NCBI GenBank assembly: GCA_040437565.1
Contig: JBDOQK010000043.1
Span: 248,001-312,000 of the forward strand
DNA length: 64,000 nt
Origin: Albugo candida
Lineage: Eukaryota
Direction: 5' to 3'
Shown: one piece after another, positions 520 through 54,259 of the stretch
Position numbering within the stretch: the first letter of the stretch is position 1
Layout: each line of letters begins with the position of its first letter
Made by a program: the position numbers and the translations under genes
Notes under the pieces: model-generated
Database searches by the model: none
Seen by the model: the letters and a program-made list of their open reading frames with translations, nothing else
What the model was told of the DNA's origin: nothing

Positions 520-2403
520 TTACCGCCTTTCGGGTCCCAGGTACTTGCGTAGGTCATTTGCGGGTATAGGGCGCATGGAATGGAAATTGTCAATATTAAT
601 ACCCCACACCGTCTTCAGCTGACATGGACATCTCGGTGCTATTATCGAGTTCTTCATCCAAATGAGGTTACGACGTGGCAACATGACCAGTATCTCGCGT
701 TTTAGAGCAAGACAGAACAAACAATTCTTATCAGAATACTTTACAAGCAAAAGTGAGAATTGCATATCAGAACTGGGCGCGTCGTCTTCAATAGCTACAG
801 TATAGTGTGACGAGCCCACTTTCACTCGAGGTGGTTGTCGATGAACGGATCGTATTTTCTTTGCCGAGGCTCGTTCCAGTGTATTTAATACCATTTGCCG
901 AAAGTCTGTTCGAGCAGCGACGAGAGCTGATCCTGAAGGCGTTCTCTTTGCCATACTTTTCAGACTTCTACGCCCCGTCTTATCTTGTTTACTGATAAGA
1001 GAAGAAATGCTAGTGCGGTTTCCAGAGCCCGCTGATAACATTCGCGCCGGTGCAACAACTTGCTCGGACGAACCATAGGTCCAACAAATTTCGTTGGGGA
1101 CGAATAAAAACCTATTGCAGGTTTGCACGTTAAAGTTGCTGACGCAAGCTGCTAGCCTCAATTTCTCGATGTCCTTTACAGGAAACAGAGATGTTATATC
1201 CGAAATTACGACGGGAGCTCGATCGTCGAAAAATTCCTGAATGCAAGCGAGACAATTCCCATAACCACCTGGCTCATTGTACGTGACAACACAATCACTA
1301 TAGTAATCCAATTTGATATTTTTCGGCTCCACTAGTGCTATGAAAGTAGAGACTTGGTCGCCAATCGGTGTCGTGTCAAATTGTTTGTGGTACTTTTTGT
1401 AGCATTCGTTGGTTGGCACGTCCAGAATTGTGCATATTCCAGCACAAGCATCAGGAAATTGCGAATTGCTAGTCTCGCCGATCTTGCCAAATAAGAAATA
1501 TGCATTCGACCTAGACTCCGTGCTGACCCTCATCCAATGCACAAATAAGTTTGTTTGTCGTGCTAAACAGTTTAAACAAGGTAACATTGAATTATTAGTA
1601 TCTCCCCTCTCTTCGGAAGTGCTTTCCAGTGGCGTTGCCAGTGCGCAGTGTAATTTCCGAACATTCTGCTCATGTTTATTATCTGATTGCCTTGCTTCTC
1701 CAGTGATGCCAGCCTGATCCTTGACTATAATGCCTGATTCTCCATAATAGGTAGAGACTCCTTCGCTATGCATCACTTCACATAATTCATCACTGTATTT
1801 ATCAGCCAGTACTTCTCTGCAACTTCGGGAATCCATGCAAGCTTTAGCTGTAATGTGTTTCTGATGCGATGTGCGCAGTATATACACGAAATAATCATCT
1901 TGTAAATCTCGGAACAAAAACTCACCCATGCTTTTCGAATCACTCGTCTCTCTGAGACATACTCTGCATCTTTCTTCGACATGAATGTGTTTTTGAGCTA
2001 AACATACGACTTTTTCTTCGAGCTCATTCATCCCAATCTTTTCTATAATTCGTGTAATCGATTCCGCGCTCTCTTTGGGAGATATTTCTGGTGAAGCGCG
2101 TGGTGTCATCCGAATCAGATCGGCACAATGCCCTACGTGATTGCAGTGAGTCTGGATACGTACATGGCTCACATACGAAGCAGTGAGAACAAGTTTCACT
2201 GCGCTTTTTTGTGATTCCATGATACTAAAACCTTGGACACCTGCGGAGTTAAGCAAGCACTCCTGACAATCCCGGTACTTGGCATACTCCGAATCTGACT
2301 GCGGCTTTATTGCCAAACGATAAGTTTTTTTGATCATTTCATCGGAAGTTGCACGATATGATACCAGAGTGATGAGAACGATTATTCGATGAAGACATTG
2401 CAT
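520..2403 (-). CDS. Secreted Cys-rich CCG-type effector (627 aa)
   Basis: Intronless ORF with an N-terminal hydrophobic signal (IIVLITLVSYRATS). CQECLLNSAG matches CxxCxxxxxG shortly after the signal. Further CxxC[L/I] modules follow. Clear paralog of 59978-61909. Confidence 0.85.
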   Translation of the reverse strand: MQCLHRIIVLITLVSYRATSDEMIKKTYRLAIKPQSDSEYAKYRDCQECLLNSAGVQGFSIMESQKSAVKLVLTASYVSHVRIQTHCNHVGHCADLIRMTPRASPEISPKESAESITRIIEKIGMNELEEKVVCLAQKHIHVEERCRVCLRETSDSKSMGEFLFRDLQDDYFVYILRTSHQKHITAKACMDSRSCREVLADKYSDELCEVMHSEGVSTYYGESGIIVKDQAGITGEARQSDNKHEQNVRKLHCALATPLESTSEERGDTNNSMLPCLNCLARQTNLFVHWMRVSTESRSNAYFLFGKIGETSNSQFPDACAGICTILDVPTNECYKKYHKQFDTTPIGDQVSTFIALVEPKNIKLDYYSDCVVTYNEPGGYGNCLACIQEFFDDRAPVVISDITSLFPVKDIEKLRLAACVSNFNVQTCNRFLFVPNEICWTYGSSEQVVAPARMLSAGSGNRTSISSLISKQDKTGRRSLKSMAKRTPSGSALVAARTDFRQMVLNTLERASAKKIRSVHRQPPRVKVGSSHYTVAIEDDAPSSDMQFSLLLVKYSDKNCLFCLALKREILVMLPRRNLIWMKNSIIAPRCPCQLKTVWGINIDNFHSMRPIPANDLRKYLGPERR

Positions 2404-8599: not shown

Positions 8600-11500
8600 A
8601 GAAATCAAAATACAGTATTTTATTCGGTTCGGTTGCACGCAGCGTGTCATTATAAGGTCTTGGACACATTTCTCCTTCGCCACCAACCAATGTGAGAACT
8701 TCTTAACAAAAACCTCGCACATCTGACTTCATTGTCGTCATACGACATGTTCTGATAGTATGTAGAGTTTTGTAGCCATCTCATGATGACCTGCTGAGCC
8801 AGCATGAGTGAAGAATCATAGCGCCTCTTTTGTAACTTAATAGCTGCATCTAGTATCTATATGCATTTTTTTCTATCAAACCATATCGATCTTTCGATAT
8901 TCTTTGTCAGATCCTAATGTATCTGTTTTGTGGAGCTCTGCTTCCTGTGATTCCCTAGTTTCATCCAAGGAAGGCTTTCGAAATGTTTATTTTACAGCGG
9001 CGAGATGTTTTGCACCGTTGCTAATGAATAGCACGTCGGCGCTTCCGGCTCAATAACTTCATGTTTAGCACCCTCATTAGGATAATGAAGCCGCTCCTAC
9101 GTTAAGCCCACTTGACACATGCTCCCCCGTATATCTCACCATTATTAACTATGGCCCAACGTTGTAGTTTGCTCCCTTCTATGTCAAGAAATAGTATCAT
9201 AAACACTATGCGTATCGAAAATGAACAGCCAAGTACGATGGGCGATGGATATATGAAATCCCTTTCCTCTCAACAGTAGGTATTCCAATAGCTTTCATGC
9301 GTTCCCGATCGCGTATGCGTCTTCCTTAATCCTTGCTCACCTCAACATTGTTCTTTTCTGATGATCCGCTTAGAAATGTTGATGGGAGAGGATTTTGCTC
9401 TGGCCTTTGTATTGGGATATTTGTCAGAGCCAGCCGCGTAAGCATAGCGCCCTGTTGATCTTGCGATGCATCTGTGCACATGTAGATTTACCACGTTTCT
9501 TTTGGATGAGTCATGAGTACATTGCGTCTTTTAATTTGTTTGGACATTTGTCCTGATGCATGTGGCCTTCCAAGAACCTTTATAAGGTTTGGATTATTTG
9601 CAGATTTGGTCACACTTTCAACAACTTCGTGCAAATCGAGTAACAGTGCCGAGTAATTTGGCCTGTTGTTACGAATCGAGTTCACAGCGAATAGTCTATG
9701 CTCAAGTTCAGCCGCACTTTACGGGTTTTTGAGTTAGCAAAGGCCCCGGAACCGACTCACGCAATGAATGATTTTTTATTTTGAGACTTCTTTCAGCACC
9801 ATACTTTGAAATAATCTCTGAATTTTGCTGGATTGGCTTTCTCGTCGTAGTCCGTGCACTGCTTTAGGACTACCTCCAATGTCTCCAAAAGTCTGGGTTT
9901 TTCTCGGCATATCCGAGAGCATCATCTAACCATACTTGTAATCAGTTTTCCCAGGCTCTTTCATAACTTGTAAAGCCACCTGTTGTACGCAAGCCACTGT
10001 ATCATTGATCTCACGATGACACAAACCCTGTGAAATACTCTTGCTGGTCTCATAAAGATGTAGTTTCCAATATAAATGCAAATAATCTAGCGAAAAATAA
10101 CACGTTGATCCTTCCAATCGAGCCAAGACTACCTCCAGACGCGGCATTGGCCACGCCATAGGTACTGTTACGGCATCGATAGAACGGAATCCGCTGTCAT
10201 GCCATACTCACCGAATTATTTTTGCCGCAATTCGAGTCGCACTTTCACATTGCGAATCTGGATTTTTGTTAACCAAGCTGTGTTACGCCACTCCGACGAA
10301 TGATTCTCCGAATAGTCCTTGTGCAAACATGGGTATCGTCCAGACTTTGCCATAATGGGACTTGATCCAACATCTGCTTTCACTTCAAGAGGAGTGACTA
10401 TCACTGGATTGTCTGCTGCAGCTCTCTCAGATGTTCATACGACTTTGGCTCTGCGCGTGGTCAATGATCTCTACTGCCAATACTAGCCATATTCTCGCTA
10501 AACTTGTTCACAGCCTTGAAGAAAAATCACGCAAGCGTTTGAATCCTTATGTCTTTACGTGCAACTATAACAGTGCAATATGCAAGGTACTTAAGGTCAT
10601 GGGCCTCTTTAGCTTCTATACTGTTTTTGAAGAAAGCATATTGATGAAACGCACTGATAAGATGCGGCAATCAGAGCCTGAATCCGATAGCTTTTTTAAT
10701 TCTTAATTCCGTCCATCCTAGACCCGGTGTTTCCACACCCGTATGCTTTATTTACCCGTAATTCAGCTTCTCATTTCTGCATGGGCAATCTCCGCTGCTT
10801 CGCTTGTCCCGGCGCAAAAGACGAACAATTCCGAGGAAAATCCTGATTACTATCACTCTTCACGCACTTAAACCTTTGTTTCCCGCCCGTATCAGAAAAG
10901 AAGTCCTCTCATTCTTGACTTCTGAAAAATTTCTTCGTTGCATTATCTTATTTTGGCTTGCCTCACTGAAAAAATTATTTTGCTGGCTACCTCCTGTTAT
11001 CGCTTTCGGCTACACTCGATGATCAGATTCTGGAATCACTTGCAAAACAGCACCGGATTCCTTCTTCCTCTTCCATGAAAGTCCATCTCCAATTTTCCCA
11101 CAATTACTCATTTGAACGCTGCTGGATCCAATGCGTCAACTATCCATTTGACGTTTGTGTCCCAGAACGACGCTGTGACGAGTTCGCGGATGTCCGGTCA
11201 TCTCAGTACGCGTTGGGCGGACATACCGTCTGGAAGTAAAACTGGTTCCTCGACCGAGAATTCGATCCGACACCAGTAAATGTTGAAGCAAGCATTGGCC
11301 ATCGTATTTCTGCGTCTATTGTTGCAAAATCCACGCAATCGGGATGTTCGGCTTCTCGAAAAGAATAAATTCAATGTTGGTTGGTGATGCCCTCAGGATC
11401 CTTTCTTTCGAATCTTTTGATCTGATCCTTTGCCAAACGTCCATGCAGGCTGAGACCGGCATTACAAAAAATTGTTCATGCACGCTTCATAGGTGAGCAG

Positions 11501-13455
11501 CGTGTGGTACCATTTTTTTTGTATAATTTGATTCTTGAACGTTTCTTTTCTGTAAAATGGGTGTCGTGGAAGGTGAGTCACGCTTATTATCTGACTCTGC
11601 CGAAAACGTCCGCCATTTTGATGTCGTCTTCCACCCTTCGGACATGCTTTTTGGTTACGAACGGTCCTGACGGATCAACTCTTCTCAACGCACGTATTTG
11701 TCGTATTCTTCTGCTTCTAGTGCGATGCGCTTGAGTTTCTCGTACGCGTTTTTTATTTGTNNNNNNNNNNNNNNNNNNNNNNNNNNNNNNNNNNNNNNNN
11801 NNNNNNNNNNNNNNNNNNNNNNNNNNNNNNNNNNNNNNNNNNNNNNNNNNNNNNNNNNNNGTATCGTCCAGACTTTGCCATAATGGGACTTGATCCAACA
11901 TCTGCTTTCACTTCAAGAGGAGTGACTATCACTGGATTGTCTGCTGCAGCTCTCTCAGATGTTCATACGACTTTGGCTCTGCGCGTGGTCAATGATCTCT
12001 ACTGCCAATACTAGCCATATTCTCGCTAAACTTGTTCACAGCCTTGAAGAAAAATCACGCAAGCGTTTGAATCCTTATGTCTTTACGTGCAACTATAACA
12101 GTGCAATATGCAAGGTACTTAAGGTCATGGGCCTCTTTAGCTTCTATACTGTTTTTGAAGAAAGCATATTGATGAAACGCACTGATAAGATGCGGCAATC
12201 AGAGCCTGAATCCGATAGCTTTTTTAATTCTTAATTCCGTCCATCCTAGACCCGGTGTTTCCACACCCGTATGCTTTATTTACCCGTAATTCAGCTTCTC
12301 ATTTCTGCATGGGCAATCTCCGCTGCTTCGCTTGTCCCGGCGCAAAAGACGAACAATTCCGAGGAAAATCCTGATTACTATCACTCTTCACGCACTTAAA
12401 CCTTTGTTTCCCGCCCGTATCAGAAAAGAAGTCCTCTCATTCTTGACTTCTGAAAAATTTCTTCGTTGCATTATCTTATTTTGGCTTGCCTCACTGAAAA
12501 AATTATTTTGCTGGCTACCTCCTGTTATCGCTTTCGGCTACACTCGATGATCAGATTCTGGAATCACTTGCAAAACAGCACCGGATTCCTTCTTCCTCTT
12601 CCATGAAAGTCCATCTCCAATTTTCCCACAATTACTCATTTGAACGCTGCTGGATCCAATGCGTCAACTATCCATTTGACGTTTGTGTCCCAGAACGACG
12701 CTGTGACGAGTTCGCGGATGTCCGGTCATCTCAGTACGCGTTGGGCGGACATACCGTCTGGAAGTAAAACTGGTTCCTCGACCGAGAATTCGATCCGACA
12801 CCAGTAAATGTTGAAGCAAGCATTGGCCATCGTATTTCTGCGTCTATTGTTGCAAAATCCACGCAATCGGGATGTTCGGCTTCTCGAAAAGAATAAATTC
12901 AATGTTGGTTGGTGATGCCCTCAGGATCCTTTCTTTCGAATCTTTTGATCTGATCCTTTGCCAAACGTCCATGCAGGCTGAGACCGGCATTACAAAAAAT
13001 TGTTCATGCACGCTTCATAGGTGAGCAGCGTGTGGTACCATTTTTTTTGTATAATTTGATTCTTGAACGTTTCTTTTCTGTAAAATGGGTGTCGTGGAAG
13101 GTGAGTCACGCTTATTATCTGACTCTGCCGAAAACGTCCGCCATTTTGATGTCGTCTTCCACCCTTCGGACATGCTTTTTGGTTACGAACGGTCCTGACG
13201 GATCAACTCTTCTCAACGCACGTATTTGTCGTATTCTTCTGCTTCTAGTGCGATGCGCTTGAGTTTCTCGTACGCGTTTTTTATTTGTATCCCTGTACTC
13301 CATAAGTAACCAGTTTGTTTTCTATTAAAAACAAGCAGCGAACTCAACTTAGCGGTGGTATCTCTTCACTTATGAACAAGTCCTCCCTGCACAACCGCCC
13401 ACGACTCCGTGGATGTTCGACTCCTATAACTTCAAATATAAAGTGTATCGGTTGA
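8600..13455 (-). mobile_element. Degenerate Ty3/Gypsy LTR-retrotransposon gag-pol remnant (includes an artefactual 1.4 kb duplication)
   Basis: RT-like MPRLEVVLARLEGSTCYFSLDYLHLYWKL at 9926-10159. Integrase Zn-finger-like H-x-H remnant near 8700-8820, downstream of RT (Gypsy order). Many stops. No LTRs identified. Confidence 0.7.
11861..13288 (+). other. Exact duplicate of 10333-11760 across an N gap (assembly artefact)
   Basis: Identical ORFs at a 1528 bp offset. The duplication ends exactly at the gap edges. Confidence 0.85.
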
Positions 13456-13476
13456 GGTTTTTCTTGGTACCTGTGC

Positions 13477-14045
13477 TCGGAATCGTGGTGACTTCGTTAC
13501 CAACTTGGATCGTAACCTTTATGTGACCTATATCAAGTGAGCCTTCTAATCTGATCTCGCTATCTGACATCTCCTCTATTGTAGACTGAATTCCATTCAC
13601 TGATTCTCTTGATATTGTTGATTCAAAAAGTGCATAGGACCATCATTCTTCAAACATGTAAATGCATATAATCCTCTTGCATAATCAGCGAAAGCATGGA
13701 AGTCGAACCTTGATCAAGCGAAAGATGGCCTCGGTGTCCAGTGACATAATCATGAGATCTAGTCATGGGACCTAAGCATGGGATGGATATCGGACCCATC
13801 AATCCCTCAACAAGTCTCGACTGCCAAGCTTTTGTTGAATACACGAGAGGATTATATGTATTTACATGTTTGAAGAGTGATGGTCCTATGCACTTTTTGA
13901 ATCAACAATATCAAGAGAATCGGTGAATGGAATTCAGTCTACAATAGAGGAGATGTCAGATAGCGAGATCAGATTAGAAGGCTCACTTGATATAGGTCAC
14001 ATAAGGTTACGATCCAAGTTGGTAACGAAGTCACCTTGATTCCGA
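13477..14045. repeat. Fold-back inverted repeat (~570 bp) derived from the pepsin-like pseudo-protease gene
   Basis: 13477-13678 is the near-perfect reverse complement of 13846-14045. Imperfect pairing continues to a centre near 13760. The arms encode KVTIQVGNEVTLIP-like sequence. Confidence 0.9.
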
Positions 14046-14420
14046 ATAGCGAATTTTACGCACTATACCATTTTCGAAAAATAGTACGCAACTCGAGATT
14101 AGAGAATATCGCTATCGAGGAGGATGTGCATCACTCGTCATGTTCAACAAGAGTTGGCAATTACCTTTGTCCGGTCCGCTTACCTCTGTATGCACCATCT
14201 GAATGTTCGATTCGTATATATTCCATCTCAATTGTTTGTCAGTAATGGTGACACTGTACAGTTCGTATTGCAATTTAAGGAATGATGATTATATTGGATA
14301 CTGGAATATTATGTTCAAATAATAAAATTAAAACGAATAATGTACATTTGTATCTGTTCCTGAAAGATGATACGATGAACACTAAAGGAATGAAAATGAT
14401 CAACAATGTAGCATGCCAAG
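13770..14420 (+). pseudogene. Pepsin-like pseudo-protease pseudogene fragment
   Basis: Matches 53063-53780 (GNEVTLIP, RYRGGC, NGDTCT, YLFLKDD). Contains stops and frameshifts. Confidence 0.7.
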
Positions 14421-16065
14421 GCTTAACGGAAGAGATACACTTAGTCACCCCACATTCAAAACAATCGGAGAAACTATTAGCCGTGCGTGGGCAATACGCT
14501 CCGGTATCACTCGAATGCTGAGTCAATATGTGTGAAGCCAAATACAGAGAAGTTGTGTCTGCTTCTGAGACTCAGCAAACGCTGCTAGCTCTACCGTTTT
14601 GTAAAGTCGACTTCTGCTTGATTGAAAATTGAGAGTATTCGCTGCACAAGAACAGAACAACAAGACAATTACGTTCGAGCGCAAAATAATTTGTGATCGC
14701 CCAGTCAGTCATTCGCTGAAATCGTTAGACGATGTATAAGAAGCACTATCAAAATGAGGATGAATTAGAAAGGTTTTAGTCACTTTCAAGAGCGATCAAA
14801 GAATGCTTTTGTGGCTGTTAGCTCACGCCAAGCGCTCACCTCATAAGCTGGGTGCGGCATGACCGAAACAGATGCTGAAACTTGAAATGTTCAAGAGGTA
14901 TTACATCGAATGAGCAAGACGAAACAAACAAATGCCATCGATTTTACCGATAGCGCATTAGCTGCAAGTTCGTCCAGCACGATTTCATCAGATTGATCAT
15001 TGCAATAGAAAGCCAGATTTGCGGCAAGCCCCCTGTCTGAAGAAGTGGGACCATGTTGAAAAGCATCACTTTCTTGAATTCTGCAAAGTGAACATTGTGT
15101 GAACATGCTTGATTGCCCAACCACAAATTTATCGTCAAGAACGAGTATGACCGTCAAAAATGACAATTTCTTCCACACATGGCGCTCTCCCGCAAATTTA
15201 TTGCTGTGAAAATCCATGTGAACAATCGCCCATGTTGAAGTAAACTTCTACTTCGGTCAAAGTTGACTGTCGGCATCAAATCCTTCCAAGTAGGTCTCCT
15301 GTAGCTTGATATTTCTACAATCCTATGTGTATGTTATGAAGAACTTGATCAGCGACGAAGAGTACGCGCCAAAACTCCTGAGGGTCTCCATGGCAAACGA
15401 TTAAAAGCGAGCGAGACTTTTTCGTCTAGTCTCTATCAAGATAACGTCGGACGAACCAGCATTATTCAAAACTGACATCCATGAAATACTTGACGTCGCA
15501 GAGCTTGCAATTAGTAGCACGTTGACAAGCTTGCCCGTATAAGGAGCTTATCAGTTCATATCTTTTGATCATTACTGTACATTTATGATCAGTAGAATTG
15601 ATATACGCATGCGCCAGCTATTGCGGCTCCGTTCAGAACAAACTGCAATGGCTTCAGCAATATATAAACGGGTAATATAACGCTTTGCTATTTAACCACA
15701 AGGGCAGTCGCCGGTCGCGTCGTTTCGAACGCGATAGAGGCTTGCCGACCACTAGAAAGGTCCCGCGATTTGAACAAGAGAACAAAGAGAAAACAACTTC
15801 CATCTATTTTTACGTGCATGTTTGTAACGGTACTAAGCTTTCAGCTAGTGGTAATGCATCGCGAATGAGAGCAGAGGACGTTGATCAACCGTGATTGCAA
15901 CACTACAAAGAGTGAGAACACGAAGAAAGTTACTTCTATTCTCAGCATTACATAGGGAAGTTTGCATTGTTTTATGGTATAGGGAAGAATAATATGTGAA
16001 CTGCTTTGTTCTGACTTCCTATCAGAGAAGTAAGAACTCCACTTGCGACGGATCGAATTCATATC

Positions 16066-16078
16066 TCATTCTTCAAAT
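16066..16078 (+). promoter_or_regulatory. Oomycete Inr/FPR core promoter motif
   Basis: TCATTCTTCAAAT about 60 bp upstream of the elicitin-like ATG. Conserved at 25760 and 43662. Confidence 0.6.
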
Positions 16079-16129
16079 CGACTTGATCTTCACAGCCATC
16101 TTCTGTACGAAATCGCTCTTTCATCAAAA

Positions 16130-16831
16130 ATGAAGACTACTACTTTTTCCCTCATCTCTGCTACCCTTGCTTTGTACACTGCTGGACAAGACGCTCCATC
16201 GAATGCGACCATAATGAACACTGCTTCCAACACGGATGACGATTCATCCAACAACATGAACACTCCTTCTAACAACATGCCGAACAACATGCCGAACAAC
16301 ATGCCGAGCAACATCATGCGACCTGTGGCTAACAATGAGATGACGATTGTATCCCCCAGTCCAATGAACACTGATCGACCAATGTGCAATGACACTGTTA
16401 CTAAAATGGCAATCAAACAGTGGACGGATGTGAAATGGATCACATCATGTTCCAAAGCAGTTTTAATGCCCATCAAAAGCATTAATGACGTTGCAAAACT
16501 CTCCACTGAGAATATGCAGAAAATGTGTTTATCTTCGGAATGTATGAAACCATTCTCGGATATGGCATCGTCAAATGTGTACAAGAACTGTGATGTCATG
16601 TATGATGGAAAAAAGCAAAATCTTGCCGTTGAAGCTGGAAAAATGTCTGATATGTGCAAAAAAGACGATAAAGATGAGAAGCTTTCAGGAAGCACTGATA
16701 ATTCAGGCGATGCAGAACCCAAAGAATCTGTGGCTGATCCTACCGTCAAGGATGAAAAGTCCAGCGCCGCATTCCACTCATTCAGCGCAGTCTGTATCGC
16801 TGTTACTTTCTTCGTATTAGCTTCGTACTAG
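16130..16831 (+). CDS. GPI-anchored elicitin-like protein (ELL), copy 1
   Basis: Signal peptide MKTTTFSLISATLALYTAG, Asn/Met/Pro-rich linker, six-Cys elicitin-like domain, acidic/Ser spacer, and SSA omega-like site with a hydrophobic C-terminal tail. Confidence 0.8.
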   Translation: MKTTTFSLISATLALYTAGQDAPSNATIMNTASNTDDDSSNNMNTPSNNMPNNMPNNMPSNIMRPVANNEMTIVSPSPMNTDRPMCNDTVTKMAIKQWTDVKWITSCSKAVLMPIKSINDVAKLSTENMQKMCLSSECMKPFSDMASSNVYKNCDVMYDGKKQNLAVEAGKMSDMCKKDDKDEKLSGSTDNSGDAEPKESVADPTVKDEKSSAAFHSFSAVCIAVTFFVLASY

Positions 16832-16899
16832 GAATAAAGGTATTGTAGATTGTATACTCCAATATCATTCATATACATTACATTGATTTCCTGTTCAAA

Positions 16900-17130
16900 A
16901 TATCTTACTCATTGCATTCTATCCCTGCTATATCCGCAATTGGCTCATCGAAAGCCTAAAAAAGAGTGAATTTTGGTCAATGCCAGCCGAAAGATAAAAA
17001 TAGTCGTGCAAAACCTGGAAAGTATGCTGACTCCCCAATATTCACGTTTGTGCAATCTATTTCTGACATCGATAAGAAAGTTGGTTTCAGATCCAGGAAT
17101 CAAGCTTTGACCCGAAAGCGTTGCTCCACG
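16900..17130 (-). pseudogene. Probable 5' stub of a CCG effector
   Basis: The upstream region 17200-17450 resembles the CCG/gene X intergenic region at 2480-2650 and 59580-59800. Decayed CQK-..G-like codons. Paralog at 26570-26787. Confidence 0.35.
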
Positions 17131-18529
17131 AGGGCTTTAATTATACTTTTCGGCATTGATAAATAGAACCTATTCTTCGATCTTTAGATGAAGCTTACAT
17201 AGATGCAGAATCCACTTCCTTGTCCCGGTGCAATATACATCTTTTTGTACAAAGTGGAAGATTTTACAGTTTTACAAAGAAATTGTTGGGCATATCGAAT
17301 GCATCGAATTCTAAGAAAAAGGGCAGCTTCAAGAGCATCCACAACCATACCATGTATCTGTGAGTAGAAACCGCACTTGACAGCTTACAACATCGTAATA
17401 GCTATAGCTTAAACTCTTCACCAACTCTCGGAACAAGCTCTATTTGATCCCATTTTTTTTTAGAGAAAGTTTGAGGATTAAAAACTCTACAATTCTTTCA
17501 CTGGTTATCAATCTACTATTTCTTCTTGAAAGACTTTTTCCAAACTGCTGGTGCTAATGTTCCAGAACACAACTCAACACAGTGATGTCAATGTGTTCGG
17601 AAGGATAGTAATACTAAGCAGGAAACACTAGAATCGAATTATGAGCTCTCAAGTCCTGAAATCGTGTTCGCTTCCAAATTTTCAAAGAAAAAAAGACATC
17701 CACTCCACTTTTGCCCATAAACTTGACTAATCTTTTGGATAATACTTTGGCCCATTTATAGGAGGAGAAACGCAATCGTTCAGTGCTCCATCGTTTGACC
17801 ACCTACGCAACAAAGGATTAAGCGAGGAGAATCATTTCCAGCACCATCATCTCCAAGCACAAATTGAAAGAATACCAATGACTTAACCCGACCTTCCAAT
17901 CAAGAGGATGTAGCACACGAAAGTGATCTTTACGCTACGCCAAACAACAATCACCTGATTGGTTCTATCAACAAGCTCCGATGGCGCAATTGGCTTAACT
18001 CTGCATAAATAAAGCAGACAATGAATCAGCCTAGACGCAATTTCTTTTTTTTTATTTCGCTCGCTTTGAAGCGCCTTGCCATTCAAGCCCTCAGTAATGT
18101 TTGGCCCCCGAATATGATCGTGTATGCATGACGACATGATCAGCGATATGACAGTCATATTCGGTCATGACGATAGAATTGTAATTGAGTTATAAAGTGT
18201 GTTTGCACAATGTTTCGTCGAAAGAAGCGCTTGCAAGATTGTGCCAGTTATCGAAAGTGGACTTCACGCCATAAGATTTCGCTGGTGCAATGATCACATC
18301 CGATGTGCTCACCGTAATCGGTCCTAGGACCAGCTTCGCATTAAACTCGTGCTGATCAAGCTGGGTCACCTTGCAGCCGAATCGCGATCGGTAAAATGGA
18401 TGTTGCGTTCTTTTTCCGGTCATGCGTCGTGCTCATTTCGATGGAATTACTTGGTGATTTTCAATTCTCAGCATCTGTTTCGGTGTAGTCGTACCATTTT
18501 GAAGAGAGCCCTCAGCGTCTCCATTATTG

Positions 18530-18790
18530 CATTGGCCTCAACGGCATTTACCACTTTCTCATCCTTCCTCATTGTCGCTGTTACTACTTATACAGCGTGC
18601 GACGCTTTGCTTTTTGCGTGTGGTCGGTTTGGCGATCACACACCAATTGCGCGCTCGATCTGAATCACTTTGGTGTTTTGTTGATGTGATATGTGGCAAT
18701 CACAAGCAAGTCGTTATGATTCGAGCGTTGCGTGATCAATATCAGACATGTGCTTTTACGCTTACAAAAGGTCATCGATCGATCAAATGG
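18530..18790 (+). pseudogene. Small secreted Cys protein pseudogene
   Basis: FLIVAVTTYTACDALLFACG matches 32788-33054. Premature TGA at 18661. Confidence 0.6.
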
Positions 18791-19059
18791 CAAAAAAGCT
18801 CATGGTATTCGTCGGTTCTAGAGAATGCTCGCTACTCTTAGTTCACACCCAGTATTCGAGTGACCCAAGCTGACACGTATTGTGAACGCGTGGCCATTAG
18901 CCACGCCGATTGTTTGAATGATTTTTGTCAGAACAGGTTGTACACATTACGACAAGCCGGGATAGTTTAGTCTATGACGTCACATCATGGATCTTTATAT
19001 CGCAATGGTTTCGACATTGACTGTCTAGTGCTCGCTTATTTTGATTTATAAATCGACTA

Positions 19060-19790
19060 AAAGCATGCATTGATAAAAGAACTCGTCGAATCCAGTGTGT
19101 GATGACTTCCTATCTCACGTTCGCTCAGTCTTGTTAATATCGTTTTTCTTCGACAGGTTCTCTTCACTTGCGTGCTACATCTTTGATCCCTCCAGTTCCT
19201 CGCTCATGATCAATTTGTTATCATGATCTTTGCTGAATAGATACCGATGTACACCATTTTTTGCTACAATATATCAGGCTGATAACTCCTGAATATCGAT
19301 GACCCCAGTATCCATTCATTATCATCTTTCTTTGAATCTTCAGTGAGAAGAATACAGGTGTCACCCTCTCTGTAAAATGATCGAGCTGTAATATGAATTA
19401 GTTCCAATTTTTCATGAAAAATGATCAAGCTGGCCAAATCAATATAAGGTGTCGAACTTTTAATAAACTTGACGAGTGCGCGCAGTCTGCTTGATAACGA
19501 CCATTTTCTAATTTTATGTTGGGTACATATTCCTTTCAAAAGATCCAAAACAATTTGAATTGGCTACTCGGAATCAAGTTACTTCGTTTCAAAGCTGGAT
19601 TGTAACATTTTGATCCGTATGCTTTGATCCTCCAAAATGGATTTCGACGTCCAAATCCTCTATCACAAGCCAACTCTTGCATTGCTCTGGTTCAAATGCC
19701 ACAACAGGTACTTGGAAAATAGGAACATGATTCATCACCCATCTAAATGAAAAAGGTCCTAGACCTTTATTGCGCCCAAAAACAATCCAA
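19060..19790 (-). pseudogene. Pepsin-like pseudo-protease pseudogene
   Basis: GDTCILLTEDSKKDDNEWILGSSIFRSYQ matches 53063-53749. Frameshifted. Confidence 0.8.
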
Positions 19791-19799
19791 GGTTAAGAC

Positions 19800-22700
19800 G
19801 TGTCTCCGGAGAAAGTATACCTTCTTGCTCTCAACAAGCAAGTTCAAAGAACACCACTTCATCTTCCAGCCAAAGCGCATAAATCTTGAAATACAGTATT
19901 TTATTCGGTTTGGTTGCACGCAGCGTGTCATCATAAGGTCTTGGACACATTTCTCCATTCGCCACAAACCGATGTGGTAATTTCTTAACAAAAACATTGC
20001 ACATCTGACTTCATTGTCGTCGATACGACATTTTCTGAATCTATATAGGGTTTTGTAGCCATCCCATGATGGCCTGCTGAGCCAGCATGAGTAAGGAATC
20101 ATAGCGCCTCTTTTATAAGTTGATAGCTGCATTAAGTATCCACATACATTTTTTTGTATCAATCCATATCGATCTTTCGATATTCTTTGTCAGATCCCAA
20201 TGTATCTGTTTTGTGGAGCTCTCCTTTCTGTGATTCGCTAGTTTCATCCAAGGAAGGCTTTCGAAATGCTTATTTTACAGCGGCAGATGCTTTTGCACCG
20301 TTGCTAATGAATAGCACGTCGGTGCTTCCCGCTTAATAACTTCATGTTTAGTACTCACATTGTGGTATTAAAGCCATCCTAAGCTAAGCCCACTTGACAC
20401 ATGCTCCCACGTATATCTTACCATTATTAACTATGACTCAACTTTGTAGTTTGCTCCCTTTATATCGAGAAATAGTATCATAAACACTATACTTATCGAA
20501 AATGAACAGCCAAGTACGATGGGTGATGAATATATGACATCCCTTTTCTCTCAACAATAGGTACTTCAATAGCTTTAATGTGTTCCCGATCGCGTGTGCG
20601 TCTTCCTTAATCCTTGCTTACCTCAACATTTTTTTTTTGACGATCCGCTTAGAAATGTTGATGGGAAATGATTTTGCTCTGGCCTTTGAATTGGGATATT
20701 TCTCAGAGCCAGCCGCGTAAGCATAGCGCCCTGTTGATCTTGCGATGCATCCGTGCACATGCACGTACCTTTTGCATGAATCATGAGTAACATTGCTAAT
20801 AGTGCGTCTTGTACTTTTTTTGGACATTTGACTTGCTGCATGTGGCCTTCCAAGAACCTTCAGAAGGTTTCGATTATTTATACTTCCGGCAGATTTGGTC
20901 ACACTACCAACAACCTCGTGCAGATTGTGTACCATTGAAGTGTAATTGGTCTGCTGTTACGCTCACAGCACATAGACTATGCTTAAGTTCAGCCGCAGTA
21001 TACGGGCATTTCGAGTCAGCAAAGTCACCGGAAACGACTCAGCAATGACTCATCCTTTCTTTTAATACTTCTTCCAGCACCATAATTTGAGATGATCTGT
21101 GTATTTTGCTTCACGTCGTAGTCCATGCACTGCTGTAGGACTACGTCCAATGTCTCCAAAAGTCTAGATTTCCTCGGTATACCCGAGAACATCATCTATC
21201 CTACTTTTAATCAGTTTTCCCAGTCTCTTTCATAACTTGTGAAGCCACGGATTGTGCGCAATCCACTGCATGATTGATCTCACGATCACTCAACCCCTGT
21301 TAAATACTCTTGATGGTCTCAGAAAGATGTAGTTGCCAATATAAACGCAAACAATCTAGTGCAAAATAACACGTTGATCCTGCCAATCGAGCCAAGACTA
21401 CCTCCAGACGCGGCATTGGACACGTCATAGTTGCTGTTACGGCATCGATAGCACGGAAATCCACTGTGCCATACTTACCGACTTATTTTGCCGAAATTCG
21501 AGACGCACTTCCGAATTACGAATTTAGCTTTTTTTTTAACAGCTTGTGGTATGCTACTCCGATGGAAGATTCTCCGAATAATCCTTGTGCGCAAACATGG
21601 GTATCGTATAGGCTTTGCCCAGATGGGACTTGATCCTTCATCTGGTTTCACTTCGACAGCAGTGTCTATCACTGGAGAGTCCGCTGCAGCTCTCTCAGAC
21701 GTTCAGACGACTTCGGCTCTGCGCCTGGTCCATCAACTCTTCTTCCAATACTAGCCATATTCTCGTGAAACGTTCTCCATAGCCTTGCAGGAAATTTCAC
21801 GCAAGCGTTCAAATCCTTGTGCCCTTACGCGCATTCCCTTATGAATATCCTATTGCTCTATCAAATGTCTGTGTAATATTAGGGATAAGGATTCATCCTC
21901 TACATTTACCAGCACTCCAAGATTTTTCCATAAATGTGGTCTACCATTAGCTTCTAACTTAACGTAATCCATTAGTACCTTTCTTCTCACCCATAGCAGT
22001 GCAATATGCAAGTTACTTAAAGTCATGGGCCTATTCACCTTTTATACTGTTTTTAAAGAAAGCATATTTGTCAAACCCGCTGATACGATGCGGGCTATCA
22101 GAGCCTGGATCCAATAGCGTTCTTGAAAATCAATTCCGTCCACCTCAGACACGGTGTTTCCACACCCCTATGCTTTATTTACCCGTAATGCAGCTTTCAT
22201 TTCTATACGGGCAATCTCCGCTGCTTCTCTTGTCCCGGTGAAAATGACGAACAATTCCGAGGTCAGTCTTGAGCACTATCACTCTTCAGGCACTTGAACC
22301 TTTGTTTCCCGCTTGTATCAGAAAAATAGGCCCTCTCGTTCTTGACTTCTGTATATATTTCTTCATTGCATTTTCTTATTTTGGCTTGCCTCGCTGAAAA
22401 TATTTCTCTGCTCGGTACCTCCTCTTATCGCTTTCGGCTACACTCAATGAGCAGATTCTGGCACCACTTGCAAACTATCACCGAATGTCTTCTTCCTCTT
22501 CCATAAAAGTCCATCTCTAACTTTGAACGCTGGTGAATCCAATGCGTCAACCATCCACTTGACGTTTTTCAATTCTCTTGCTCCACGTACCTCTGTATAC
22601 CGTGCTAATTTGTGTTTGTAAAATTGGTTCCTCAACCGAGAATTTCTCGATCCGACACCAGTAAATGTTGAACCAATCATTGTACAGCGTATTTCTGCGT

Positions 22701-23630
22701 CGATTGTTGCCAATTTCACGCAATCGGGGTGTTCGTTTTCTCGAAAGGAAGTAATTCAATGTTGGCTGGTGATGTCCTCAGGATCCTTTCTTTCGAATCT
22801 TTTGATCTGATACCTTTGCCAAACGTCCATGCGGGATGATACCGGCATTACAAAAAATTGTTCATGCACGTTTCATAGGTGAGCAGCGTGTTGTGACATT
22901 TTCTGTATAATTTTGATTCTTGGACGTTTAAAATGGGTGCCGTGGAAGGTGACGCACGCTTTTTATCTGGCTGTGCCGAGACCGTCACCCCTATGATGGA
23001 GTCTGCCATCCTTCGGACACGCTGTTCGGTCGCGAACGGTCCTGACATATCAACTGCTCAACGCACGTATTCGTCGTATTCTTCTGCTTCTAGTGCGATA
23101 CGCTTAAGTTTCTCGTGCGCGTCTTCATTTGTATTCATGTACTTCGCAAGTAACCAGTTTCTTTTCTGAATCAAACTTCTTTTAAAGAAAACAAGCAGCG
23201 AACTCAACNNNNNNNNNNNNNNNNNNNNNNNNNNNNNNNNNNNNNNNNNNNNNNNNNNNNNNNNNNNNNNNNNNNNNNNNNNNNNNNNNNNNNNNNNNNN
23301 NNNNNNNNGATCCAGTACCTTTGCAAGCCGAATGCGTTCCTCTTGGTCGTAACACTGTCTTCGAAAGTACCGAACGTGCGCACTAAACGTGGTGTAAATG
23401 ACGGAAAGTGCTGGAACTGTCGGAGTTGCTGATCGTTGATCGAACAAACGACGATTCCGATCTGCCCAGAAGAACTGCAGTGTCACCGCTTGCAATGCAA
23501 GCCATAAATCTAAGATAATTGCTAAATAATCTTTCCAATTCGACCGTAGTGTGTCCTCCCTACACAACCGCCCACGACTTCGGGGATGTTCGACTCTTAT
23601 AAATCCAAATATAGAGTGTATCGGTACTAC
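19800..23630 (-). mobile_element. Degenerate Ty3/Gypsy remnant, paralog of 8600-13455
   Basis: Colinear similarity from ~19890 onward with 8610 onward. Same RT and integrase remnants. Confidence 0.7.
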
Positions 23631-23660
23631 TTAAAAAGACACGTGGGCTCCCCTGTTACA

Positions 23661-24227
23661 CGGAATCGAGGTGACTTCGTTACCAAGTTGGAGCGTAAGC
23701 TTTGTGTGACCTATATCAAGTGAGCCTCCTAATCTGAACTCGCTATCTGATAACTCCTCCATCGTAGACCAAATTTCATTCACCGATTATCTTGATACTG
23801 TTGATTCAAAAAGTGCATAGGACCATCATTCTTCAAACATGTAAATACATATAATTCCCTTGTATAATCAACGAAAGCTTGGAAGTCGAGACTTGTATAA
23901 GTGAGTGATGGCCTCGGTATCCAGTGATCTAATCATGGGATCTAATCATGGGACCTAATGATGGGATGGATATCGCACCCATCAATCCATTAAACCAGTC
24001 TCGACTCCCAAGATTTTGTTGAAGGCACAAGAGGATTATATGCATTTACATGTTTGAAGAGTGATGGTCGTATGCATTTTTGAATAAATAAACTAAAGAG
24101 AATCGGTGAATGGACTTCGGTCCAAGATAGAGGAGTTATCAGATAGCGAAATCAATCAAGAGGTTCACTTGATATAGGTCACATAAAGGTTACGATCCAA
24201 GTTGGTAACGAAATCACCTTGATTCCG
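23661..24227. repeat. Second copy of the fold-back inverted repeat of the pseudo-protease gene
   Basis: 23661-~23900 is the reverse complement of ~23995-24227. Paralog of 13477-14045. The + strand pseudogene continues to ~24600. Confidence 0.85.
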
Positions 24228-25110
24228 AGTAGCGAATTTTACGCACTGGACCATTTTCGAAAAAAAGTACGCAACTCGAGGTTAGAGAATGTCGCTATCG
24301 AGGAGGATGTGCATCACTCATCAGATTCAACAAGAGTTGGCAATTACCTTTGCCCGATCCGCTTACTTTCTGTGTGCGCCATCTGAATATTCGGTTGGTA
24401 TATATTCATCTTAATTGGTTTTCAGTAATGGTGACACTGTACACTTCTTATTGAAAACTCAAGGAATGATGATTATATTGGTACTGGAATCTTAAGTTCA
24501 AATAATACAACTAAAATGATCATGTACATTTGTATCTATTCCTGAAGATGATACGATGATACGATGGACACTAAAGGAATGAAAATGATCAACAATGCAG
24601 CGTGCCAAGGCTTACGGAAGAGATAGGCTTATCTTATGTTTTAACTTAAGTCATGCCCTTAATAATCGAGTAACCAGATAGCTAATGTTTTGATATGTTT
24701 CGATTCCAGGCACTCTAATATGTCGTCATAGTTTTAGCTGTCTAGATTCGTCTATGCATAAAACCTGATCTAGTAAGCCATTCAGAACAATCGTAGAAGC
24801 TAATACACTGTAGCCGTGCGTGGACAATACTCGCCGCTATCACTCCAATGCTGAGTCAATATGTGTGAAGCCAAATGCTGAGAAGTTGTTTCTGCTTCTG
24901 AGACTCACAAAACTCTGCTAGATCTACTTTTTTGTAAAGTCGACTCCCGCTTGGTTAAAAATTGCGAGCATCCTCTGCATCCAACACATACAGTGTGACC
25001 TCGCAACAGTCGAGTGATGTAGACTTGCTTGTCATTGCACGCGAAAAGAAAATCCATGATGTAACGATCCTGTGAGCTCTTCTATGCTCATAACACGGCC
25101 ACAAGAACAG

Positions 25111-25158
25111 ACAACAGAACAACAGAACAACAGAACAACAGAACAACAGAACAACAGA
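25111..25158 (+). repeat. (ACAACAGA)6 tandem repeat
   Basis: Six perfect 8-mers. The paralogous site near 14650 has only about one unit. Confidence 0.95.
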
Positions 25159-25823
25159 GCAGCAAGACAATTGAGTTCGAGGGCAAAATCAATTTTTGAT
25201 CACCCAGCCAGCCATGCTCTGAAAGCGTTGGACGATGTATAAAGAAGCACTATTAACAATGAGGATGAATTATTGAGTTTATAGTCACTTTCGAGAACGG
25301 TCAAAAGATGCTTTTGTGGCTTTTAGCTCAGGCCAAGCGCTCACCTCATAAGGATGAGTGCGGCATGACCGAAACAGATTCTGAAACTTGAACTGTTAAG
25401 AGATATTTACATCGAATGAGCAAGTTCTCTGACGAAACAAACAAACGCCATCGATTCTACCGATCGCGCATCAGCTGCAAGTTGGTACAGCACGAANNNN
25501 NNNNNNNNNNNNNNNNNNNNNNNNNNNNNNNNNNNNNNNNNNNNNNNNNNNNNNNNNNNNNNNNNNNNNNNNNNNNNNNNNNNNNNNNNNNNNNNNCTAT
25601 AGAGAGTAAGAACATGAAGAAAGTTACTTCTGTTCTCAGCATTACAGACCGAAGTTTGCATTGTTTTATGGTAAAGAGAAGAACCATATGCGAACTGCTT
25701 TGTTCTGACTTCCTATCAGAGGAGTAAGAACTTCACTTGCGACGGATCGAACTTATATCTCACTCTTCAAATCGACTTGATCTTCACTGCCATCTTCTGT
25801 ACGAATTCGATCTTTCATCAAAA

Positions 25824-26489
25824 ATGAAGACTACTACCTTTTCCCTCATCTCTGCTACGCTTGCTTTGTACACTTCTGGACAAGACGCTCCATCGAATGC
25901 GACCACCATGAACACTGCTTCCAACATGGATGACGATTCATCCAGCAACATGAACACTCCTTCCAACAACATGCCGAGCAACAACATGCGACCTATGGCT
26001 AACAATGAGATGAAGATTGTATCCCCCAGTCCAATGAACACTGATCGACCAATGTGCAATGACACTGTTACTAAAATGGCAATCAAACAGTGGAAGGATG
26101 TGATATCGTTCACATCATGTTCCAAAGCAGTGTCAATGCCCATCAAAAGCATTAATGACGTTGCAAAACTCTCCACTGAGAATCTTCTGAAAATGTGTTC
26201 ATCTTCGGAATGCATCAAACCATTCTCGGATATGGCATCGTCAACTGTGTACAAGAGCTGTGATGTCATGTATGATGGAAAAAAGCAAAATCTTGCCGTT
26301 GAAGCTGGAAAAATTTCTGATATGTGCCAAAAAGACGATAAAGATGAGAAGCTTTCAGGAAGCACTGATAATTCAGGCGATGCGGACCCCAAAGATCCTA
26401 CCGTCAAGGATGAAAAGTCCAGCGCCGCTTTTCACTCATTCAGCGCAGCCTGTATCGCTATTACTTTCTTTGTATTGGCTTCGTACTAG
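25824..26489 (+). CDS. GPI-anchored elicitin-like protein (ELL), copy 2
   Basis: Close paralog of 16130-16831 with six Cys, signal peptide and GPI-like tail. Confidence 0.8.
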   Translation: MKTTTFSLISATLALYTSGQDAPSNATTMNTASNMDDDSSSNMNTPSNNMPSNNMRPMANNEMKIVSPSPMNTDRPMCNDTVTKMAIKQWKDVISFTSCSKAVSMPIKSINDVAKLSTENLLKMCSSSECIKPFSDMASSTVYKSCDVMYDGKKQNLAVEAGKISDMCQKDDKDEKLSGSTDNSGDADPKDPTVKDEKSSAAFHSFSAACIAITFFVLASY

Positions 26490-40880: not shown

Positions 40881-40899
40881 CGAACGAGCTTCGGCTTGT

Positions 40900-49378: not shown

Positions 49379-49465
49379 ATTGCCATTTCATAACTTCCAC
49401 GATATCTATAATGCATGCATTCTTCGGATAATAACCTTTTCGCTAGCTTTGGCAGTCTTCAATAA

Positions 49466-53062: not shown

Positions 53063-54259
53063 CTAAAAGCAACCCTTGAAAATCGCATTCCAGCATCCAG
53101 TGTTTGGTGGCTCTGGATCTCTCTTCTGTTCAGCCTTGCCGATAGCATCTTCCTTTTGTAAGTTATCCTCCCTCATCCTTGATTCTTCCTTCAGATCCAA
53201 ATCATATTCCTCTGCAATGTTCACCATGTTATCTTCCACGAAGAGATACGTATATGGATGATTCGCTGTATTTATTACAATTTGATAACTTCTCAAAATG
53301 GAAGATCCCAGTATCCAGTCATTATCATCTTTCTTTGAATCTTCAATGAGAAGAGTACAAGTGTCACCATTTCTGACAAACGATTGGGGTGGATTGTGCT
53401 TTGAGGTATGATCTGAAAAGAAAATATATAAGGCGAGCTGGTCGCCATGAAATGGTTTCGATGTTTTGATGTAGGCGACGAGTGACGCGCACTCTCCTTG
53501 ATAACGACCATCTTCTAGTTTCGGGTCGCGCACCTTTTCCTTGAAGATATCCCAAAAATTCTTGGATTTGCTAGTCGGAATCAAGGTGACCTCGTTACCA
53601 AGTTCGACTGTAACCCTCTGATCCTTATACTCTATGCCTCCAAATTGGATGCTGCATTTCTCCATTTCCTTCACCGATAGCTTAGTTTGATAATTCGGTC
53701 CTTTTGAATCTGGTGAAGTTAATTGGAGAGTAGGACCATGATCCTTCACCCATTTGAATAGAGAAGTCCCTTGACTGATTTTTAGGACAGCCTGAATGCT
53801 GAGACTTGGACTTGGGAGAGACTATAATTGGTTGCTTCTAACCAGCGAATTTAAAGATTCCAAACTCATTTTCCACACGACATGCGTTTCTCGTTTATAT
53901 TTAGCGGCTTCGAAACATCTCACAACTTCCACGATATAACCCTCAAATAAACCAGAAGACCATCTCGGCAGCACGCATGGACTCTTTATGAGAAATGTCA
54001 CGTCAAACAAGAAATCAGTAAACGAAGGTGTGGTTTCCTTCTTTGACTTTTTCTTAGTAGGAGGGCTCTTCACAAATGTTCCGTCGGGCATCATTCTAAC
54101 CAAAGAAGATATGTCAACACTCAGGCCTCGCTGACCTACCTCTCCTGTCTTTCCTGATACTATGATCGTTTCCATGTGAGAAACATCGAAACAGTTTGAT
54201 TGAGATTGAGCTGCATTCAATAAGACAAGACCGCACATTTTGAATGTAAGTGTCTTCAT
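53063..54259 (-). pseudogene. Secreted pepsin-fold-like protein lacking catalytic motifs, interrupted by one in-frame TAG (53822-53824)
   Basis: ORFs 53822-54259 and 53063-53749 are in the same frame with an open linker. Signal MKTLTFKMCGLVLLNAAQS. CTLLIE...WILGSSILRSYQIVIN resembles the A1 aspartic-protease C-terminal ILG motif. Confidence 0.6.

What the first reader, a model, noticed from the sequence alone, without database searches (positions are those of the whole stretch)
13477..14045. Gene-derived fold-back hairpin whose arms co-evolve: candidate hairpin-RNA/siRNA locus
Seen: a head-to-head duplication of part of the pseudo-protease gene forms a ~570 bp palindrome, and the same palindrome is present at 23661-24227. 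Within each copy the two arms share substitutions that differ between the copies. Both arms of copy 1 read CTGACATCTCC..ATT..GACT (13564-13587 and its partner). Both arms of copy 2 read CTGATAACTCC..ATC..GACC (23747-23770 and its partner). That is four co-varying sites in about 25 nt. Inference: the arms were homogenised after the segmental duplication, either by arm-to-arm gene conversion or by selection for pairing. If transcribed, the long dsRNA could give siRNAs against the whole pseudo-protease family. This would parallel the inverted-duplication origin of plant miRNA/hpRNA genes, here inside an oomycete effector region.
Basis: partly seen in the sequence, partly recalled or inferred. Interest (0 to 1): 0.8.

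Follow-up and report, generated by a model that had tools for sequence, protein, structure and literature searches.

The report
Gene-derived palindrome inside a retrotransposon LTR
A piece of a broken secreted-protein gene was copied back on itself inside a dead retrotransposon, and in one of two duplicated copies the two halves have since been copied onto each other, which most likely reflects ordinary DNA repair, though the locus could also be a source of small silencing RNAs.

Summary
Both palindromes are real (13477-14045, 23657-24231); an independent DNA run confirms copy 1's outer junctions. The four quoted sites exist, plus a fifth. The co-evolution is one-sided. Copy-1 arms differ at 3 of 188 core sites, copy-2 arms at 28 of 188, the copies at 18-21. 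Copy 1 carries a sharp-edged conversion tract (p=5e-5); copy 2 has none. With four paralogs as outgroups, 3 shared states are derived in copy 1, 1 in copy 2 (0.43 expected by chance), 1 is tied. New anatomy: the loop and left flank are the LTR of a decayed retrotransposon that inserted into a pepsin-fold pseudo-protease gene; the left arm is an inverted copy of LTR tip plus gene, set into that LTR. Family-wide silencing fails: 0 of 13 long family ORFs match better than shuffled DNA; only two broken paralogs have a near-perfect site. Best reading: template-switch origin, repeated DNA-level arm conversion. A selected hairpin-RNA role for copy 1 stays open (G:U bias 3 of 3, halved substitution rate, Dicer/Argonaute present); no small-RNA data could be tested.

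The parts
13477..13740 (-). Copy 1 left arm: inverted copy of 13784-14045 (LTR tip plus gene), inserted into the LTR about 60 nt from its outer end
   Evidence: absent from four relatives of the LTR in the alignment
13487..13677 (.). Homogenised core of copy 1 (partner about 13846-14035): 3 substitutions and one 1-nt gap between arms; longest identical run 82 nt; all 3 substitutions give G:U on a + strand RNA
13741..13783 (.). Loop: LTR sequence, with a short unit of about 13 nt repeated three times
   Evidence: relatives on C2, C20, C34, C9; repeats read from the sequence
13784..14045 (+). Copy 1 right arm: last 18 nt of the LTR (to 13801), then the middle of the pseudo-protease gene in sense orientation
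   Evidence: X17 contig 13795-14111 with 0 differences
13356..13801 (-). LTR of about 180 nt (TG at 13801, CA at 13356 on the minus strand) split by the left arm
   Evidence: 20 matches in the genome, same-strand pairs 4.1 kb apart on C20 and 3.3 kb apart on C5. Inner end inferred from where the matches stop
12150..13355 (-). Decayed gag-like body of the retroelement
   Evidence: 67-68% to C20, C34, C2 copies; the C20 relative carries a CCHC knuckle, a DSG word (read; Pfam found nothing for these two pieces) and RVT_1 over its cut-off, E=1e-7
13802..14450 (+). Remnant of a secreted pepsin-fold pseudo-protease gene, many stops and frameshifts, 5' third not found beside it
   Evidence: (62-64% nucleotide identity to four paralogs)
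23661..23923 (-). Copy 2 left arm, decaying
23924..23966 (.). Copy 2 loop (LTR sequence; LTR outer end at 23984)
23967..24227 (+). Copy 2 right arm; 28 of 188 core sites differ from its left arm, longest identical run 20 nt
23309..23553 (.). High-copy dispersed repeat inserted into the copy-2 LTR remnant; absent from copy 1
   Evidence: 40 matches scored of 222 candidates, 87-95%; very high depth in X4
8608..18026 (+). First unit of the tandem segmental duplication (second unit 19889-27672); non-coding blocks differ by 9-15%, mean about 12.5%
   Evidence: rates equal in the two units outside the stem, 24 vs 26 and 14 vs 17
14288..15722 (-). Stretch covered by contigs of a probably-RNA run, with a skip that reads as a GT..AG intron on the minus strand (14746-14839); it points toward the hairpin; longest ORF 108 aa
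   Evidence: (X18; X19 covers 14340-15235 unspliced)
53063..54259 (-). Nearest near-complete paralog, split by one stop at codon 146; holds the only near-perfect site for hairpin-derived small RNAs in the window (53575-53599)

Best explanation
An old DNA accident kept tidy by DNA repair. (1) An LTR retrotransposon inserted antisense into a secreted pepsin-fold pseudo-protease gene at 13801/13802 and broke it (shown by homology). (2) A two-switch template event copied about 262 nt (LTR tip plus gene) backwards and set it into the LTR 43 nt away, making a hairpin with a short loop (structure shown; mechanism inferred). (3) The outer 190 nt of the arms were then copied onto each other more than once by arm-to-arm conversion or template switching, while the inner 60 nt escaped and drifted to about 30% difference (pattern shown; mechanism inferred). 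(4) The region was duplicated; copy 1 was converted again, copy 2 was not and now decays at the rate of its flanks. The mirrored sites are the by-product of copying. If the locus is ever read through, it would fold and probably be diced, but no selected function or intact target is needed to explain it.
For: Sharp mosaic: core L1-R1 3 of 188 against inner 20 of 61 (p=4e-11), run of 21 agreeing polymorphic sites, p=5e-5; the core was chosen after seeing the data, the run test was not. Copy 2: no run (p=1.0), private changes mostly derived (8 of 11 and 12 of 14), no strand bias of G:U (9 vs 12). LTR anatomy. No intact target: best 21-mer has 4-6 mismatches in 13 of 13 long family ORFs for copy 1, shuffled controls 4-7; 0 of 13 have a site scoring 2 or better on either strand of either copy; the best-matching 25-mer occurs genome-wide only in the four arms and two broken paralogs. 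Concerted evolution of inverted-repeat arms by recombination or template switching is described generally (PMC5941160, PMC1803023, passages), and conversion biased to the ancestral state lowers arm divergence without function (PMC3723533, passages).
Against: It does not explain why only copy 1 stayed homogeneous, why the same outer 190 nt were favoured before and after the duplication, why all 3 core differences are G:U on one strand (about 0.05 by my rough reckoning from the copy-2 spectrum, no call; 7 vs 3 over the longer stem), or why copy 1 gained only 5-6 changes where 11.8 are expected (P 0.02-0.05). The five by-locus sites cluster in 43 nt (p=0.009), unexplained. Long close palindromes away from gaps are rare in 817 kb surveyed, so long survival is not the norm here.
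Confidence: 0.6

Rival explanations
1. Copy 1 is a functional hairpin-RNA gene. A + strand (antisense-to-element) or read-through minus-strand transcript folds into a 159-bp unbroken stem, is cut by Dicer into heterogeneous siRNAs, and selection keeps the stem; conversion supplies the mirrored changes and selection retains them; copy 2 became redundant and decays.
For: Unbroken 159-bp stem on the + strand, 113 on the minus; 3 of 3 core differences G:U on +; copy-1 stem evolves at about half the flank rate while flanks are symmetric; stem kept while loop-proximal arms drift, over a time about 2.5 times the age of the duplication (inference); one-kept-one-lost pattern; 4 Piwi and 4 RNase III matches over cut-off, two of the latter in one 1218-aa frame; Phytophthora inverted repeats give 21-nt small RNAs, e.g. 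the 714-nt pin-IR2758 (PMC3804510, passages); a spliced minus-strand contig points at the hairpin.
Against: No intact target among 13 ORFs; only two broken paralogs have sites, all in one window at the base of the stem, and that window is no more conserved than windows between paralogs unrelated to the hairpin (27 of 27 for par53k vs par19k). The LTR's own direction of transcription leads away from the right arm (inference). Statistical hints are borderline and each has a neutral explanation.
Confidence: 0.25
2. The hairpin is an incidental siRNA source with only local effect: occasional read-through yields 25-nt siRNAs that add to chromatin silencing of the two duplicated units and the two near-matching broken paralogs, with little or no selection.
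For: Perfect self-targets and a 90% identical second copy exist; sites scoring 0.5-2 in par53k and C149; 25-nt small RNAs map to transposon loci in Phytophthora (PMC3804510, abstract and passages); all four closest paralogs found are broken.
Against: No small-RNA or chromatin data; the stem holds only about 18 diverged nt of LTR, so it cannot target the retroelement family; two other broken paralogs have no site, so breakage of the sub-clade does not track targeting.
Confidence: 0.12
3. The palindrome or the identity of the copy-1 arms is an assembly artefact.
For: This assembly does contain perfect fold-backs at scaffold gaps (L052, L122) and 100% duplications across N-runs.
Against: Two loci share the same junctions but differ by 10%; arms are imperfect; copy 1 is 1617 nt from the nearest gap; X4 contigs confirm both outer junctions and stop at the predicted mirror positions; depth is about doubled on the left arm and low on the right, as for collapsed identical arms (91 vs 41).
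Confidence: 0.03

Closest known systems
Phytophthora inverted-repeat siRNA loci (pin-IR2758, 714 nt) and MIR8788 (PMC3804510; abstract and passages seen)
   Same: Oomycete, long inverted repeat of similar size predicted to fold into a hairpin; RNAi genes present.
   Different: Those loci are defined by sequenced 21-nt RNAs; none could be tested here. MIR8788 is short, conserved across species and has validated targets; this locus has no intact target found and no Rfam match.
Drosophila hpRNAs Nmy, Tmy, mini-Tmy (bioRxiv 10.1101/2021.08.05.454923; passages seen)
   Same: Near-perfect inverted repeat built from a copy of a multigene-family member, then locally duplicated.
   Different: Those match living target genes closely and silence them in trans; here the parent gene is dead and intact relatives are 18-33% identical to one another in protein with no usable site.
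Concerted evolution of inverted-repeat arms: C. elegans gene-pair palindromes (PMC1803023), human Y palindrome P6 (PMC3723533), template-switch correction (PMC5941160); passages seen
   Same: Arms more alike within a locus than between loci; duplicated copies can lose the structure (a C. briggsae case is described); lower divergence in arms.
   Different: Much shorter than Y palindromes, no intact gene in the arms, built on an LTR-gene junction.
Inverted-duplication origin of plant MIRNA genes (PMC6523410; passage seen)
   Same: Inverted duplication of coding sequence that would fold when transcribed.
   Different: No narrowing to a short precise stem, no evidence of processing, parent and near paralogs broken.

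Membership tests
hairpin-RNA / inverted-repeat siRNA locus | Long intramolecular stem | tested here: met
   Copy 1: -426 kcal/mol, 159-bp unbroken stem; copy 2: longest run 29
hairpin-RNA / inverted-repeat siRNA locus | One transcript spanning both arms | tested here: inconclusive
   Only contigs of guessed-RNA runs could be laid; they cannot show strand, start or absence
hairpin-RNA / inverted-repeat siRNA locus | 21-nt or 25-nt reads from both arms on one strand | not testable with these tools
   No raw small-RNA reads among the 24 listed runs
hairpin-RNA / inverted-repeat siRNA locus | Dicer and Argonaute in the organism | tested here: met
   4 Piwi, 4 RNase III matches over cut-off; activity untested, and PMC4791657 notes altered RNase III motifs in A. 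laibachii DCL2 (passage)
hpRNA that silences its gene family in trans | Near-perfect sites in intact family members | tested here: not met
   0 of 13 long ORFs; other family loci at best 3 mismatches in 21; motif only in arms and 2 broken paralogs. Not all family members were in hand
MIRNA gene | Short precise miRNA/miRNA* duplex, known family | tested here: inconclusive
   No Rfam match in 12000-26000; precision needs reads
Palindrome under arm-to-arm conversion | Arms closer within a locus than between loci, with derived states shared by both arms | tested here: met
   Copy 1: 3 vs 18-21 of 188; 3 derived shared sites; run p=5e-5
Palindrome under arm-to-arm conversion | The same in copy 2 since the duplication | tested here: not met
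   28 of 188; no run; 1 derived site, 0.43 expected, 1 tie
LTR retrotransposon (flank and loop) | Paired direct LTRs with TG..CA ends around gag-pol | tested here: met
   Met in relatives on C20 and C5; the window's own element is truncated and no second LTR was found beside it
Pepsin-like aspartic protease (source gene family) | Pepsin fold | tested here: met
   Profile hits HAP, chymosin, pepsin E 0.002-0.35; model pLDDT 72, Foldseek plasmepsin/renin E about 1e-10, TM only about 0.4
Pepsin-like aspartic protease (source gene family) | Two catalytic D[TS]G[ST] motifs | tested here: not met
   0 of 13 aligned proteins have one; 2 of 13 have a lone D[TS]G

The most novel reading that the evidence does not exclude
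Copy 1 is an old, selected hairpin-RNA gene of a white-rust-type oomycete, born when a retrotransposon LTR and a secreted pseudo-protease gene were fused and folded back, kept paired by conversion for about 2.5 times the age of its duplication, and acting through siRNAs on a target outside the intact family (unassembled paralogs, local chromatin or the host), with its duplicate caught in the act of decay.
Probability: 0.2. Interest if true: 0.65.

Novelty: new member of a known kind. Interest (0 to 1): 0.36.

Why it matters
As it stands it is a clean natural experiment: two copies of one palindrome, one converted and one decaying, which shows that mirrored substitutions in hairpin arms can come from DNA copying and are not by themselves evidence of RNA function. 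If small RNAs are found it would be a traceable birth of a hairpin-RNA gene in an oomycete lineage for which my four searches (listings only, open-licence library) showed no described hairpin or small-RNA locus, and it is cheap to test with one small-RNA library.

Tried and rejected
Expression: no RNA holder listed on record; this is no evidence either way. Of 4 runs laid, X18 looks like RNA (two skips with intron ends, highest depth on the elicitin-like gene) and has no cover in 3 of 3 bins over 12900-14090 and 3 of 3 over 23619-24800; X19 has one contig, 14340-15235. Parts without cover prove nothing, and hairpins are easily lost in such libraries. X18 and X19 (two studies) stop 52 nt apart (14288, 14340) where the DNA run goes on; at best a weak hint that this transcript ends before the hairpin, and 73 rows of the loose-end table were not shown. 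X17 covers part of the right arm but has thin scattered depth everywhere and high depth on the dispersed repeat, so I take it for DNA. Promoters: the bacterial-type scan is irrelevant and at chance level (7 vs 4.7); a recalled oomycete core-promoter pattern gave 1 hit near each side of copy 1 but none upstream of two control genes, so it was dropped. I first took the left flank for a CCG effector pseudogene; rejected (no match to the two CCG ORFs; retroelement). The conserved 27-nt window at the stem base as a sign of target co-evolution: rejected, similar windows occur between other paralogs. Inter-copy conversion as cause of the clustering: no significant run for any cross-locus pair. A closer intact parent gene elsewhere: none among 150 proteins held, one homolog only. 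No related genome was available, so no cross-species test. Rfam and tRNA scans empty. Background survey: 80 stretches, 816,944 non-N bases, not random, repeats across stretch borders missed; 8 rows with arms of 50 nt or more and spacer up to 600: the two hairpins, 3 at or across N-gaps, L063, a 66% inverted gene pair, one 56-nt arm. Supplementary files were not read; the inverted-repeat table of PMC3804510 and the annotation files of the Albugo papers may bear on novelty.

Full report
Observation. A four-arm alignment gives five by-locus sites (13545, 13568, 13570, 13580, 13587), five by-side sites in 13477-13712 and one crosswise site. With no homogenisation 0.76 by-locus sites are expected, so the signal is real. 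The structure is not an assembly error: DNA run X4 has contigs reaching into both arms from the flanks with no difference and stopping at 13516 and 14006, the mirror positions predicted by the first 31-mer that both arms share. No piece spans the whole palindrome.

Setting. The window holds two ORFs with the CxxCxxxxxG motif that defines Albugo CCG effectors (motif from bioRxiv 10.1101/2021.03.29.437041, passages; ORFs) and elicitin-like genes, so an Albugo-type oomycete is inferred. The hairpins lie in a tandem duplication, 8608-18026 and 19889-27672, whose non-coding blocks differ by about 12.5%, evenly on both sides.

Source gene. The right arm and the sequence after it are a remnant of a secreted family with 30 listed matches in the genome. 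Twelve intact members plus the nearest broken paralog were aligned (a thirteenth ORF that crosses an N-run was left out). The profile hits histo-aspartic protease, chymosin and pepsin weakly, the model matches plasmepsins and renin, and none of 13 has a D[TS]G[ST] motif. 'Pseudo-protease' is a fair name. The four closest paralogs found, 62-64% identical in DNA, are all broken.

Anatomy. The left flank is not a host gene. It matches dispersed copies at 67-68%, one of which continues into reverse transcriptase. In four relatives the sequence left of 13477 runs straight on into what is here the loop, and ends at a shared terminus equal to 13801, beyond which their flanks differ. This 180-nt segment has 20 matches in the genome, some as same-strand pairs 3-4 kb apart: an LTR. 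So a retrotransposon inserted antisense into the gene, and later 13784-14045 (LTR tip plus gene) was copied in reverse into the LTR 43 nt away. The arrangement A, inverted B, C, B is what two template switches during replication give (inference; mechanism as described in PMC5941160, passages). Copy 2 later took a high-copy repeat into its LTR remnant.

Who co-evolves. In the core (188 ungapped columns) L1-R1 differ at 3, L2-R2 at 28, cross-locus pairs at 18-21. In the inner 61 columns arms group by side and differ at 20 and 16. A run test that does not preselect the core finds one tract, between L1 and R1 (21 sites, p=5e-5), and none for the other five pairs; whole-stem sign tests are not significant. 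Outgroups make three shared states derived in copy 1, one derived in copy 2 and one tied; the outgroups are distant, so polarity is uncertain. One derived site in copy 2 is within chance (0.43 expected; two would be p=0.07). Copy-2 private changes are mostly derived, so the core was already nearly homogeneous when the region was duplicated while the inner arms were not: conversion acted before the duplication and again in copy 1 after it. Exact mirror changes at three or four sites need copying; selection can only decide whether they are kept.

Targets. Every 21-mer of copy 1 was compared with all loci then held. Near-perfect sites occur only in two broken paralogs, in one window at the base of the stem; the genome-wide pattern search agrees. 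For 13 long family ORFs the best match is at the level of shuffled DNA (one copy-2 match of 3 mismatches), and none scores 2 or better with G:U allowed. Silencing of the whole family is therefore not supported, within the members I held.

What keeps the RNA reading alive. Copy 1 has a 159-bp unbroken stem on the + strand, its three core differences are all G:U on that strand, it gained 5-6 changes where 11.8 are expected (P 0.02-0.05), and its duplicate decays. Argonaute and RNase III genes are present, and inverted repeats do yield 21-nt RNAs in Phytophthora (PMC3804510, abstract and passages). A spliced minus-strand contig lies at 14288-15722 and points toward the hairpin. Against this, conversion biased to the ancestral state gives slow arms without function (PMC3723533, passages), each statistic is borderline, and no target is in sight. 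Transcription of the hairpin itself was not shown.

Verdict. A real gene-derived palindrome with one-sided concerted evolution, most likely DNA-level (0.60); selected hairpin RNA 0.25; incidental siRNA source 0.12; artefact 0.03. New member of a known kind (closest: PMC1803023-type conserved inverted repeats; if diced, pin-IR2758-type loci or Nmy/Tmy-type hpRNAs, bioRxiv 10.1101/2021.08.05.454923, passages). Papers PMC4791657, PMC12503489 and PMC6523410 were seen as passages; PMC12503489 lists aspartyl-protease folds as shared by all secretomes studied, and the passages shown said nothing of this family in particular; PMC7297541 was seen only in search listings. Interest 0.36.

Noticed in passing
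window 10333-11760 = 11861-13288; 32468-33324 = 33425-34281; 40898-41578 = 41679-42359: Three 100% identical direct duplications, each across a 100-N gap: overlapping contig ends placed in tandem, assembly artefacts.
   Followed up: partly
window 23309-23553: Dispersed repeat of 245 nt or more, 222 candidate places, 87-95% identical, with extreme summed depth in DNA run X4 (217,533 against about 55); class not determined.
   Followed up: partly
L063:8702-8944 (G000:C24:68702-68944): A second fold-back inside another member of the same pseudo-protease family: near-perfect arms of about 120 nt, no spacer. The following 846 nt are repeated 100% after the next N-gap, so it may be an artefact or a very young event.
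   Followed up: partly
L052:8818-8953, L122:7762-8488, L072:2270-2457: Perfect or near-perfect fold-backs at or across scaffold gaps; probable assembly artefacts.
   Followed up: partly
G000 contigs C24, C43, C52, C53, C54, C95, C505: A large expanded family of secreted pepsin-fold proteins without catalytic motifs (at least 12 intact ORFs of 332-414 aa, mean column identity 27%; 149 profile hits, the weakest likely true aspartic proteases). My one search for it listed no dedicated paper; possibly more interesting than the hairpin.
   Followed up: partly
window 520-2403 (-), 59978-61909 (+), fragment 34785-35096: Two intact CCG-motif effector-like ORFs, 37% identical, and a fragment.
   Followed up: no
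window 16130-16831, 25824-26489, 43726-44415: Three elicitin-domain genes (Pfam E=1e-8 for the first), the best conserved part of the duplication (5% between the first two).
   Followed up: no
window 14288-15722 (-) and 19894-20650 (+): Spliced contigs of a probably-RNA run with no long ORF found for the first, both antisense to pseudo-protease remnants; the second carries 34 differences and may come from the other duplicate.
   Followed up: partly
window 53822-53824: The single stop that splits the 53063-54259 paralog seems shared: database proteins 97-98% identical match the two halves separately (P0052, P0029).
   Followed up: no
window 13545-13587: All five by-locus sites fall in 43 of 190 nt (p=0.009); unexplained.
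   Followed up: partly
window 44692-58123, 62631-64000: Housekeeping-type genes (ORC6-like, SPX-EXS, Fes1-like, a ribosomal-protein-like ORF recognised from recall, DNA polymerase phi-like with a 92% partial duplicate).
   Followed up: no
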